Assembly: GCA_964530635.1 (NCBI GenBank)
Contig: CAZGYI010000001.1
Span: 1 to 35,201 of the forward strand
DNA length: 35,201 nucleotides
Origin: an uncultured Gammaproteobacteria bacterium
GTDB lineage: Bacteria > Patescibacteriota > Patescibacteriia > Veblenbacterales > UBA10138
Reading direction: 5' to 3'
This document shows positions 7,098-30,241 of this stretch, piece by piece; positions within the stretch are counted from its first letter, which is position 1; each line of letters starts with the position of its first letter. The position numbers and the translations under genes were made by a program. Under the pieces are notes generated by a model. That model had not been told where the DNA came from and searched no databases. It saw nothing but the letters and a program-made list of their open reading frames with translations.

Positions 7098-7393
7098 AAT
7101 CCGTATATCAACTTCGCTCGCCAAAATTTAAGCGAGAGAAGTGTATTAATGATAAATGCGTTAATCTAAAATTGAGCATAATTGAAGTTAAGAGAATAAT
7201 TTTGTCAAGCCGCGTCTGGCCGCTCGGTGGCTACCCATATGCCAAGCATATGGGTATGCCCGCCACCTCGCTGTCGTTTTGCGATCCAGACGCGGGAATA
7301 TCTATTTGCGCTCTGAGTCCCCAATGCCAAGCATTGGGGCGTGTCGCGAAGGCGGTCAATAAGTTTAAAAGCGAAGTTATATTACGGGAATAA
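7098..7393 (-). promoter_or_regulatory. argS promoter-leader module, second copy of the ileS module, interrupted by a 146-bp insertion
   Basis: 7098-7208 and 7355-7393 align base for base with 5148-5292. TTGACA is the reverse complement of 7203-7208. The hairpin is CTCGC/GCGAG, followed by the box GAAGTTGATATACGGATT and the ATG. Confidence 0.6.
7209..7354. mobile_element. MITE-like GC-rich structured insertion flanked by direct GTCAA copies
   Basis: Absent from the otherwise co-linear ileS module. GTCAA occurs at 7204-7208 and again at 7355-7359. Internal structure: a 10-bp stem (7210-7219 with 7286-7295), a 6-bp stem (7226-7231 with 7262-7267), and two paralogous 9-bp hairpins with a CAA triloop (7234-7254 and 7319-7339). 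Confidence 0.5.
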
Positions 7394-7439: not shown

Positions 7440-7620
7440 ATAAATTAATAAATCTGCCCCTATCACGCAAGACCCGCTGCGCAACGCGAGTTGACAAACG
7501 TGGGCACGAGCGTGTTCTGGTCACTTTTGCATAGCGGGCGCCAACGAGCCAACGAGCACTACTCGGGCCTTGCGCGCCTGAATGGTAATCTTTTTATTAC
7601 TTCTTCTAAAGAAGTAATAA
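7440..7620. repeat. GC-rich structured repeat, family X copy 1, plus a 12-bp AT hairpin; ncRNA or non-autonomous element
   Basis: Roughly 75 percent identical by eye to 29899-30005, e.g. GCTGCG..AGTTG.C.AACG.GGGC.CGAGCGTGTT...TGCATAGCG.GCGCCA..GAGCCA. Closing helix is CGCAAGaCCC (about 7466-7475) with GGGcCTTGCG (about 7565-7574). Perfect hairpin 7594-7605 with 7609-7620. Confidence 0.5.
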
Positions 7621-8465: not shown

Positions 8466-8508
8466 AGTAATAATTAAAAAATCAAAATGTAAAATTATTT
8501 AATTGTTT

Positions 8509-8567
8509 TGTCTTCCTGAACTCGTTTTAGAATCTTTATTAGATGCTGAAATAAATCCAGGGTGACT
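8509..8567. repeat. Short repeat, family W, empty copy
   Basis: 8510-8548 matches the reverse complement of 10570-10608 at about 32 of 39 positions. Ends are TGTCTTCC ... GGGTGACT. Contains an AATCT..AGAT hairpin. Confidence 0.45.
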
Positions 8568-8634
8568 AGTTTTCTAGCTTCCAGATTCTAGCTTTCTAGT
8601 TTCTAAATCCTAACGGTTTATTTATCTTACTACT

Positions 8635-10451: not shown

Positions 10452-10609
10452 TGTCATTCCAAATTCCTGCCCGCCGTCCGCTTTCATCAATCTAAGTGCA
10501 AAATCGGTTCTAGCACATTGACAAGGGACGGAAGAAAATTCGAGCTTAGACTTTGGCAGGCGGATAGTTCGGAATCTATTATAGATTCTAAAACAAGTTC
10601 AGAATGACA
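10452..10609. repeat. Composite repeat: a family W element (inverted relative to 8509-8567) carrying a family Y module at 10466-10563
   Basis: 8-bp terminal inverted repeat TGTCATTC (10452-10459) with GAATGACA (10602-10609). The Y termini CCTGCCCGCCGTCCGC and CTTAGACTTTGGCAGGCGG are near-identical to those at 30006-30104. Confidence 0.5.
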
Positions 10610-29861: not shown

Positions 29862-29898
29862 TTCCTAAAATAAATCCTTATACGCCAAAATTATTAAT

Positions 29899-30178
29899 TT
29901 AATATTGCCACCATCGCGTAAGCCTGCTGCGGAGCGGAAGTTGGCGAACGCGGGCGCGAGCGTGTTGCGTCCTTGCTGCATAGCGAGCGCCAGTGAGCCA
30001 AACGACCTGCCCGCCGTCCGCCTTCCTCTATGAAGGTGTGGAGATAAAGTGTTTTTAGTTGACGATGAATGGAAGTAATCACCAACTTAGACTTTGGCAG
30101 GCGGGGCACCGCTCAGGCTGAAGCGCCTAGGTGGCGATTCTTTCTGCTATTTCTTTAAAAGAAATGGCAAAGAAATAA
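29899..30178. repeat. Family X copy 2 carrying a nested family Y module (30006-30104), plus an AT hairpin
   Basis: 29899-30005 aligns with 7447-7555. Y termini are CCTGCCCGCCGTCCGCC (30006-) and CTTAGACTTTGGCAGGCGG (30086-30104). Long-range segmented helix: GCCACC/GGTGGC, GCG/CGC, GCCTG/CAGGC and GCGG/CCGC, between about 29905-29933 and 30107-30137. Confidence 0.5.
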
Positions 30179-30241
30179 CTACCTCCGCCGAAAAAATAAA
30201 AAAGCAATAAGAAAAATTACCTAAAAAAGTAACAAAAACAT

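What the first reader, a model, noticed from the sequence alone, without database searches (positions are those of the whole stretch)
30006..30104. Family Y: a ~99-nt GC-rich module found as an insertion inside two unrelated host repeats
- Y has near-identical 19-nt termini, CCTGCCCGCCGTCCGC(C/T)TT and CTTAGACTTTGGCAGGCGG, with a diverged interior.
- Copy 2 sits inside repeat X2, exactly between ...GAGCCAAACGA and GGCACCGCTCAGG.... These positions are contiguous in the Y-free paralog X1 (7440-7620).
- Copy 1 (10466-10563) sits inside a family W element, and the Y-free paralog of that element is at 8509-8567.
- Two independent filled/empty pairs for the same module argue that Y is, or was, mobile and nests into other repeats.
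- No target duplication is evident. The termini can pair (CTGCC/GGCAG, CCGCC/GGCGG).
Basis: seen in the sequence. Interest (0 to 1): 0.6.

Follow-up and report, generated by a model that had tools for sequence, protein, structure and literature searches.

The report
Mobile GC-clamped hairpin cassette family
The two ~100-base "Y" copies belong to a widespread family of small gene-less DNA inserts in ultra-small (CPR/Patescibacteria) bacteria, bounded by one conserved 10-base GC-rich clamp, that slip precisely and without target duplication into other repeats; relatives of it carry a spare tRNA gene into the tRNA gene they break, and I found no description of it and no enzyme that moves it.

Summary

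- **Boundaries and copy number.** Y is a discrete insert of 99-100 nt. The 880-kb genome holds about 22 copies in three subfamilies.
- **Filled and empty sites.** Base-precise pairs without target duplication exist for four host repeats:
  - X: 2 filled; 2 clean and 1 divergent empty copy in this genome, plus 4 empty in relatives.
  - Z/V.
  - The double-hairpin repeat W, with insertions at two different hairpin tips.
  - An AT-rich motif, TCAA|AATG.
- **Separate arrivals.** The Y copies in X2 and X4 are 93% identical, while their hosts are 64-73% identical. So Y reached the same site separately.
- **Shared architecture.** All subfamilies have a 10-bp imperfect terminal stem (one G.T, one C.A), then an internal loop, a short second stem and variable cargo.
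- **Distribution.** Exact termini occur in 79 of 401 genomes of the class. A reversed-pattern control gave 0.
- **tRNA cargo.** In many of those genomes the cargo is a tRNA nested in the D or anticodon loop of a tRNA with the same anticodon. The outer gene is often decayed, which points to insertion as DNA rather than splicing.
- **Enzyme.** None identified. There was no association with Y1/HUH transposases, and no versions carrying an ORF.
- **Limits.** RNA data could not be consulted.

The parts
30006..30105 (+). Y copy 2 (subfamily A, 100 nt): CCTGCCCGCC...GGCAGGCGGG. It lies in host repeat X2, between the ligA stop and the gatC start.
   Evidence: The boundaries are fixed by empty X copies reading CCAACGA|GCAC.
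10466..10564 (+). Y copy 1 (subfamily A, 99 nt; 3'-terminal G replaced by A). It sits exactly at the tip of hairpin 1 of double-hairpin repeat W2, 25 nt upstream of the smpB start codon.
29895..30145 (+). Host repeat X2, a GC-rich rod-like structured element interrupted by Y copy 2. An AT-rich terminator-like hairpin follows at about 30146-30185.
   Evidence: The stems covary among X paralogs and homologs from related genomes.
7441..7585 (+). X1, a Y-free paralog of X2. The empty site lies between 7555 and 7556 (..ccaacga|gcac..).
10452..10609 (+). Host repeat W2 (double-hairpin element gtcat-[hp1]-atcta..tagat-[hp2]-atgac), carrying Y copy 1 in the tip of hp1.
8510..8568 (-). W1, a diverged Y-free member of the W family.
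8472..8495 (+). An empty copy of the AT-rich motif (attaaaaaatcaa|aatgtaaaatt) that hosts subfamilies B and C on other contigs. It lies just upstream of rpmI (L35).

Best explanation
Y is a non-autonomous mobile DNA element, which I call a 'GC-clamped hairpin cassette'.

**What defines it (shown).**
- Its identity lies in its two ends, 5'-CCTGCCCGCC and GGCAGGCGGG-3'.
- On either single strand the ends pair into a 10-bp stem with one G.T wobble and one C.A mismatch.
- An A/T-rich internal loop or bulge and a 3-6 bp second stem follow.
- Whatever lies beyond the second stem is cargo. Cargo can be nothing (20-33-nt hairpins), about 80 nt of AT-rich non-coding DNA (Y and subfamilies B and C of this genome), or a whole tRNA gene.
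- The unit is inserted, and possibly excised, as DNA at a single phosphodiester bond. It leaves no target duplication.
- Each subfamily recurs at its own preferred sites. Most clear cases are unpaired positions of foldable DNA:
  - tips of the W hairpins;
  - an internal loop of the X rod;
  - the loop of the Z/V hairpin;
  - the D and anticodon loops of tRNA genes.

**What is inferred.**
- A protein supplied in trans recognises the conserved imperfect stem. I could not identify it.
- The reaction probably acts on extruded or single-stranded hairpin DNA.
- Insertion inactivates the target. For that reason, copies in single-copy tRNA genes are seen only when the cassette itself carries a working tRNA of the same anticodon. 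That tRNA probably arises by local hopping of a clamp-flanked tRNA into its own gene copy.
For: **Discrete unit.**
- About 22 copies in three subfamilies share only the ends and a little interior.
- The termini are non-random in the window.
- Across the class, 79 of 401 genomes carry exact termini. The reversed pattern gave 0.

**Precise filled and empty pairs without target duplication.**
- X, within the genome and in relatives.
- Z, and its relative V.
- Two different W hairpin tips.
- TCAA|AATG, with many empty copies.

**Movement rather than co-duplication.**
- Y in X2 and Y in X4 are 93% identical, while the hosts are 64-73% identical.
- Y in the two Z copies is 75% identical, while the hosts are 61-64% identical.
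- Relatives G004, G008, G017 and G007 differ in content at the syntenic spacer.

**Shared architecture with compensatory changes in the second stem.**
- GTC/GAC, GCT/AGC, GCC/GGC and CGCCT/AGGCG.
- Only the terminal stem is conserved in alifold.

**Insertion as DNA that kills the target.**
- 45 elements carry a tRNA.
- In 25 of them, joining the flanks restores a tRNA spanning the junction. 22 of those have the same anticodon.
- In at least 16 of the other 20 the flanks are decayed tRNA remnants, some hit again by further palindromes. Two more lie too near a contig end to judge.
- Multi-level nests exist.

**A tail-to-tail chimera** of two subfamilies lies at C24:4631-4800.
Against: - No mobilising enzyme was found.
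  - No version carrying an ORF has these termini.
  - There is no association with Y1/HUH transposases.
- No polymorphism within a population or strain could be shown. The relatives available are from different genera, and a metagenome scan for the locus found nothing.
- A blunt MFE test gave only a modest excess of insertion points in hairpin loops, 34% against 23% expected.
- The X site is an internal loop and the B/C site is a sequence motif. Structure-directed targeting is therefore not general.
- The interior of subfamily A is partly conserved across genera (G008 copy). That could mean the cargo has a function.
Confidence: 0.72

Rival explanations
1. Y is a miniature derivative of a single-strand (HUH/Y1) transposon. 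It would be either an IS200/IS605-type palindrome-associated element or a REPIN-like element moved by a RAYT. It would insert into single-stranded DNA without target duplication.
For: - It has no target duplication and a hairpin-based structure.
- It inserts at hairpin tips.
- Subfamily B always follows TCAA.
- The genome carries four Y1_Tnp genes and an IS200-type mini-element in the window.
Against: - The IS200-like genes are flanked by unrelated hairpins (CCCCRATGCTTGSCATYGGGG and similar).
- Y has one stem made from both ends, not a subterminal hairpin at each end.
- Y1_Tnp is present in 9 of 17 multi-copy genomes and in 15 of 34 genomes with no copy.
- It is absent from G109 (19 copies), G078, G143, G012 and G001.
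Confidence: 0.1
2. Y is an element acting at the RNA level. It would be an intron-like or intervening sequence whose terminal stem is recognised by a processing enzyme such as RNase III or a splicing endonuclease. Insertion in structured RNAs (X, tRNAs) would then be harmless.
For: - It sits inside structured elements and tRNA loops.
- The terminal stem brings the two junctions together.
- Many outer tRNAs still fold perfectly.
- X2 and X4 keep their covarying stems.
Against: - In at least 16 of the 45 tRNA cases the outer tRNA is a decayed remnant or has been disrupted again, and in 3 more its anticodon call is degenerate.
- Nested copies always bring a replacement tRNA of the same anticodon, which a spliced insert would not need.
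- The clamp occurs in either orientation relative to the tRNA.
- There is no Rfam match.
- Many copies lie in AT-rich spacers.
Confidence: 0.08
3. There is no dedicated machinery. Y spreads among paralogous host repeats only by homologous recombination or gene conversion, or it is a functional small-RNA or regulatory module kept by selection and duplicated with its hosts.
For: - Each host family is filled at one fixed position.
- The interior of subfamily A is partly conserved across genera.
- Inner tRNAs can be 87-89% identical to their own outer tRNA, which suggests local processes.
Against: - The high identity between Y in X2 and Y in X4 ends exactly at the element boundaries, with no co-converted flank.
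- The same subfamily sits in unrelated hosts: X, Z/V and two different W tips.
- The 10-nt clamp is letter-identical across distant lineages while the interiors are unrelated.
Confidence: 0.1

Closest known systems
REP/REPIN elements with RAYT (TnpA-REP) transposases of proteobacteria (PMC3116915)
   Same: Both are short, GC-rich, imperfect palindromes or hairpin-forming doublets of about 100 nt. Both are gene-less, dispersed in intergenic DNA, lack target duplication and are presumed to be moved in trans.
   Different: - Y has no REP-like GTAG head.
- Its two ends form a single stem around variable cargo, not two inverted REPs.
- It shows no association with Y1/HUH genes.
- It nests into other repeats and into tRNA genes.
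IS200/IS605 family and its miniature derivatives
   Same: Both lack target duplication, depend on hairpins, and insert next to a short specific sequence (for subfamily B, TCAA).
   Different: - IS200/IS605 elements have separate subterminal hairpins at the left and right ends, plus a tnpA partner.
- Y has neither, and the resident IS200 copies have unrelated ends.
Classical MITEs (Correia/NEMIS, RUP, ERIC and similar)
   Same: Both are roughly 100-nt non-autonomous repeats with inverted termini. They fold into hairpins and can sit in transcribed spacers.
   Different: - MITEs leave target-site duplications and derive from DDE-type insertion sequences.
- Y leaves no duplication, and no parent IS was found.
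Mitochondrial GC clusters and double-hairpin elements of fungi, and small dispersed repeats of cyanobacteria (recalled from my own knowledge; not tested here)
   Same: All are tiny GC-rich palindromic inserts in AT-rich genomes. They nest into other repeats and genes, and their mobilising mechanism is unknown.
   Different: They come from different organisms and have different sequences. None is known to carry a replacement tRNA into the tRNA gene it interrupts.
Insertion sequences and introns of CPR rRNA genes (PMC11270868)
   Same: Both are insertions into structured RNA genes of CPR bacteria.
   Different: - Those are group I or group II-like introns, often encoding LAGLIDADG endonucleases.
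- Y is about 100 nt, has no ribozyme match and has no ORF.
Integron attC sites
   Same: Both are imperfect inverted repeats with unpaired bases and a variable centre of 60-140 nt, recognised as folded single strands.
   Different: Y has no RYYYAAC/GTTRRRY cores and is not arranged in cassette arrays. The integrase was not looked for.

Membership tests
Classical MITE | Terminal inverted repeats | tested here: met
   CCTGCCCGCC against the reverse complement of the 3' end, CCCGCCTGCC: 8 of 10 bases match.
Classical MITE | Target-site duplication flanking each copy | tested here: not met
   All filled and empty pairs show insertion at one bond with no duplicated bases.
Classical MITE | Related autonomous IS with the same ends | tested here: not met
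   No pair of left and right termini encloses an ORF, in this genome or in 401 genomes of the class up to a 500-nt spacing. Longer spacings in other genomes could not be scanned.
IS200/IS605-derived element | Separate subterminal hairpins at the left and right ends, resembling those of a resident tnpA copy | tested here: not met
   The hairpins flanking the four Y1_Tnp genes are unrelated to the Y ends. Folds of the copies and the alifold consensus of the nine A copies show only the stem formed by the two ends.
IS200/IS605-derived element / REPIN-RAYT | Co-occurrence with a Y1 (HUH) transposase gene | tested here: not met
   Present in 9 of 17 multi-copy genomes and 15 of 34 zero-copy genomes. 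Several genomes with the most copies have none.
REP/REPIN | Two inverted REP units, each with a conserved 5' tetranucleotide head | tested here: not met
   The sequence shows one clamp stem and no internal REP units.
Group I / group II intron or other catalogued RNA | Match to a ribozyme or RNA-family covariance model | tested here: not met
   Rfam found nothing on the Y, X or Z copies, at gathering thresholds or at E<=1-5.
Spliced or processed intervening sequence | Removal from the RNA, leaving the interrupted gene functional | not testable with these tools
Indirect evidence is against it: outer tRNAs decay and a replacement tRNA is always present.
Integron attC | Core sites RYYYAAC and GTTRRRY at the ends | tested here: not met
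   The ends read CCTGCCCGCC and GGCAGGCGGG.

The most novel reading that the evidence does not exclude
The CCTGCCCGCC/GGCAGGCGGG clamp marks a previously unrecognised class of prokaryotic mobile element.

- The transposable unit would be defined only by a roughly 10-bp imperfect hairpin stem and could carry arbitrary cargo.
- It would be inserted by an unknown structure-specific enzyme at unpaired positions of folded DNA, without target duplication.
- It would repeatedly overwrite essential tRNA genes by carrying its own copy, giving 'Russian-doll' tRNA genes.
- It would thereby drive tRNA gene turnover across the Candidate Phyla Radiation.
Probability: 0.35. Interest if true: 0.85.

Novelty: new variant of a known kind. 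Interest (0 to 1): 0.68.

Why it matters
- **Genome plasticity.** CPR genomes are tiny and streamlined, yet about 20% of the sampled genomes of this class carry this one element family. This genome layers several such families inside one another. That is a large and apparently undescribed source of plasticity in these genomes.
- **An unknown mechanism.** The element has no target duplication, no identified transposase and a clamp that is identical letter for letter across distant lineages. This suggests an enzyme or mechanism that is not yet catalogued.
- **Annotation.** The variants carrying tRNAs show how a selfish insert can invade single-copy essential genes by bringing a replacement. They also confound tRNA annotation: broken outer genes and nested inner genes are easily miscalled.
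- **Possible use.** The clamp is a simple sequence tag. It could be used to find the enzyme by phylogenetic profiling, and perhaps to build a small cargo-insertion tool.

Tried and rejected
- **Rfam.** Scans of the window and of 19 loci bearing Y, X or Z found no family.
- **Folding.**
  - Single-sequence folds of the copies were not clearly better than shuffles, with z from -0.4 to -2.9.
  - Alifold of nine subfamily-A copies found no conserved interior fold. A structured-RNA reading of the cargo was dropped.
- **IS200/RAYT partnership.** The ends do not match and there is no co-occurrence.
- **Autonomous or nuclease-bearing long versions.**
  - I searched for left and right termini 121-500 nt apart in 401 genomes, and up to 6 kb apart in this genome.
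  - Only composites and multi-level tRNA nests turned up.
- **Interrupted tRNAs in this genome.** Removing clamp elements from the genome and rerunning ARAGORN gave no new tRNA. One of the two removal patterns was too strict and removed only about half of the elements, so this check is incomplete.
- **Generic hairpin-tip test.** A test on MFE folds of the joined flanks gave only a weak signal, 34% against 23%.
- **Second-stem test.** Comparing matched with mismatched partners gave p=5e-4, but tRNA acceptor stems and the conserved GCC/GGC pair confound it.
- **Collection scans.**
  - The metagenome scan for the X2 flank gave 0 hits.
  - Hits in viral contigs were mostly chance matches in GC-rich DNA.
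- **Literature.** Searches for the motif, for tRNA introns in Patescibacteria and for nested tRNAs with the same anticodon found nothing relevant.

Full report
**1. The observation**

The window is AT-rich, about 37% G+C. It comes from an 880-kb genome in 112 contigs. Its nearest named relatives by LigA are a Patescibacteria group MAG (80%), a Candidatus Veblenbacteria MAG (71%) and a Candidatus Kerfeldbacteria MAG (64%).

Both Y copies are present as described. The 16-nt and 19-nt termini occur only at these two places in the window, even with 2-3 mismatches allowed. Shuffles expect 0.00 and 0.01 matches. The interiors are only about 56% identical.

Copy 1 lies 25 nt upstream of the smpB start. 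Copy 2 lies between the ligA stop and the gatC start. All of these genes are on the minus strand.

**2. Census and true boundaries**

A profile search of the whole genome finds about 22 copies at E<1e-3. They fall into three subfamilies:

| Subfamily | 5' end ... 3' end | Copies |
|---|---|---|
| B | ..GCCGCTCGC...GTTAGCTTTGGCAGGCGGG | about 10 |
| C | ..GCCAGATGCC...GGCTTAGGCAGGCGGG | 3 |

Alignment of the five X paralogs fixes the boundaries. Empty copies read CCAACGA|GCACT. Filled copies read CCAA(A)CGA[CCTGCC...GCGGG]GCAC. No base is duplicated. Copy 1 ends at 10564 and has A in place of the final G.

**3. Filled and empty pairs**

- **X.**
  - X2 (window) and X4 (C59) are filled at the same bond.
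  - X1 (window) and X3 (C26) are empty at that bond. The divergent X5 (C85) carries no insert.
  - So are four X homologs in related genera: G016 (three copies) and G004 contig C13.
  - The syntenic X of relative G004, also downstream of ligA, carries a 21-nt mini-hairpin, CCTGCCTCGCAGCAAGGCGGG, at exactly this bond.
  - It also carries a 20-nt palindrome on the opposite side of the same internal loop.
- **Z/V.**
  - This repeat lies upstream of X on C26, C59 and C85.
  - It is filled on C59 and C85 and empty on C26 (gccgcta|tgctaa).
  - The related repeat on C17 is filled, and its G004 counterpart is empty (gacccta|tgctaaata).
- **W.**
  - This is a double-hairpin repeat.
  - Copy 1 sits at the tip of hairpin 1, and the C82 copy at the tip of hairpin 2.
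  - At least six empty W copies exist.
- **Subfamilies B and C.**
  - They sit in an AT-rich motif, AAAAATCAA|AATG(T/C)AAAAT.
  - Many empty copies of that motif exist, including window 8472-8495.

**4. Evidence for movement**

The Y copies in X2 and X4 are 93% identical, 90.6% in the interior. Their hosts are 73% identical on the left and 64% on the right, and the high identity stops at the element boundaries. The Y copies in the two Z repeats are 75% identical, against 61-64% for the hosts.

Y therefore reached the same site in already diverged paralogs. It was not duplicated along with its host. Each subfamily also has preferred sites.

A tail-to-tail chimera of B and A lies at C24:4631-4800. 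Related genera differ at the syntenic ligA-gatC spacer:
- G004 has X with mini-hairpins.
- G008 has an A-type Y in a different context and no X.
- G017 and G007 have neither.

**5. Anatomy**

The ends pair as 5'-CCTGCCCGCC over 3'-GGGCGGACGG. That is 10 bp, with T.G at position 3 and C.A at position 7. On the complementary strand the two irregularities swap places.

Next comes an A/T-rich internal loop or a 3' bulge (TTT, TTA, TA or GAT). A second stem then follows, and it changes in a compensatory way between subfamilies and genomes: GTC/GAC, GCT/AGC, GCC/GGC and CGCCT/AGGCG.

Alifold finds nothing conserved beyond the terminal stem. Rfam finds nothing.

Forms without cargo exist:
- A perfect 20-nt palindrome, CCTGCCTGCCGGCAGGCAGG, has six copies here. 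Three of them are inserted at GCG|AAG, one of which (C85) has empty counterparts in C26 and C59.
- 33-nt hairpins such as CCTGCCCGCCAGTGCCAGGCGATGGCAGGCGGG occur elsewhere.

**6. Distribution**

The exact pattern CCTGCCCGCC-N60-120-GGCAGGCGGG occurs in 79 of 401 genomes sampled from the class, or 72 of 301 genera. The reversed-pattern control gave 0 of 401.

About 43 of them have AT-rich or tRNA interiors. They come from many CPR lineages, and some MAGs are labelled Desulfobacterales or Gammaproteobacteria. Some of those labels are unreliable: a MAG of the window's own family is labelled Gammaproteobacteria.

**7. The tRNA variants**

Of 157 elements in the fetched loci, 45 have a complete tRNA as cargo.

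- In 25 of the 45, joining the flanks restores a second tRNA spanning the junction.
- 22 of those have the same anticodon, and in the other 3 the anticodon call is degenerate.
- The junctions fall at raw positions 20-24 or 30-39, meaning the D and anticodon loops.
- The inner and outer tRNAs are always on the same strand. The clamp can face either way.
- Of the remaining 20, 16 of the 18 I examined have flanks that are visibly decayed tRNA remnants, some hit again by the 20-nt palindrome. The other two lie too near a contig end to judge.
- Nests of two or three levels occur.
- Inner tRNAs from different genomes are as diverged from one another as the outer ones are (65-83%).
- In two cases the inner tRNA is 87-89% identical to its own outer tRNA, differing mainly in the acceptor stem. 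This suggests the inner copy arises locally rather than arriving as foreign cargo.

Together these results argue three things. Insertion happens at the DNA level. It inactivates the target. It is tolerated in a single-copy tRNA gene only when the cassette supplies a replacement.

In this genome no tRNA reappeared when clamp elements were removed and ARAGORN was rerun. The removal pattern caught only about half of them, so the check is incomplete.

**8. Mechanism**

Shown:
- a discrete unit;
- precise insertion without target duplication;
- site preference for each subfamily;
- frequent location at unpaired positions of foldable DNA;
- inactivation of the target.

Inferred: an enzyme supplied in trans reads the imperfect clamp, probably on hairpin or single-stranded DNA.

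The obvious candidate, a Y1/HUH transposase, is disfavoured:
- The genome has four IS200-like genes, but their flanking hairpins are unrelated to the Y ends.
- Y1_Tnp is no more frequent in multi-copy genomes (9 of 17) than in genomes with no copy (15 of 34).
- It is absent from the genome with the most copies.

No relative carrying an ORF with these termini was found up to a 500-nt spacing.

A generic MFE test of hairpin-loop targeting was only weakly positive, 34% against 23%. The X site is an internal loop.

**9. What is known**

Literature searches found no description of the motif, of tRNA introns in Patescibacteria, or of nested tRNAs with the same anticodon.

The published work on CPR rRNA insertions concerns group I or II-like introns with LAGLIDADG genes (PMC11270868). 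REPINs (PMC3116915) are the nearest described analogue, but Y fails their defining features.

Earlier notes of this scan describe similar phenomena with other elements. I used them as leads only.

**10. Limits**

- No RNA data were available.
- No strain-level polymorphism could be shown.
- The enzyme is unknown.
- Whether the partly conserved interior of subfamily A has a function is open.

Noticed in passing
window 7441-7585 and 29895-30145; also C26:703-873, C59:1405-1668, C85:2105-2275: Family X is a GC-rich, rod-like element of about 130-150 nt.
- Its stems covary between paralogs and between genera (G016, G004).
- An AT-rich terminator-like hairpin always follows it.
- It could be an unrecognised small RNA gene family or another mobile rod. 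Rfam finds nothing.
   Followed up: partly
C85:2540-2559, C4:903-922, C90:180-199, C64:485-504, C72:3100-3119, C86:2285-2304: A perfect 20-nt palindrome, CCTGCCTGCCGGCAGGCAGG, amounts to the clamp without cargo.
- It is itself inserted precisely. Three of the six copies sit at GCG|AAG. The C85 copy has empty counterparts in C26 and C59.
- The same palindrome interrupts decayed tRNA remnants in other genomes (L107, L175).
   Followed up: partly
window 10452-10609 and about 8510-8568; C24, C21, C48, C92, C108, C82: Family W is a double-hairpin repeat, gtcat-[NNNgaatt tatttcNNN]-atcta..tagat-[NNNgaaac agttcNNN]-atgac. The hairpin stems covary between copies.
   Followed up: partly
C24:4631-4800: A tail-to-tail chimera joins a B-type left part to the reverse complement of an A-type left part at AAGT/CTAAG. 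The two facing 3' clamps appear to have been deleted.
   Followed up: no
C86:2255-2430: A 5' fragment resembling tRNA-Lys(CTT) carries the 20-nt palindrome in its D loop. It lies directly upstream of the intact tRNA-Lys(CTT) gene.
   Followed up: partly
C67:3513-3875, C54:2458-2817, C54:5125-5487, C58:4902-5087; window about 7200-7360: This 880-kb genome has four IS200-like Y1 transposase genes, each with its own flanking hairpins. Similar hairpins (CCCCAATGCCAAGCATTGGGG) occur upstream of argS in the window.
   Followed up: partly
L301 (G068:C4), L305 (G106:C1), L166 (G392:C4), L299 (G163:C67): tRNA genes nested two or three levels deep. The clamp elements inside them face in alternating orientations.
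   Followed up: partly
whole genome G000: ARAGORN finds only 33 tRNA genes. None is found for Met, Phe, Tyr, Cys or Asn. The cause may be the fragmented assembly or tRNA genes interrupted by other elements.
   Followed up: no
Genome contigs record titles (L220, L225, L227 and others): Several 'MAG TPA_asm: uncultured Gammaproteobacteria' records encode a LigA 64-79% identical to this CPR genome's. One of them, L227, is the contig that the genome search places in the window's own family. These taxonomic labels therefore look unreliable.
   Followed up: no
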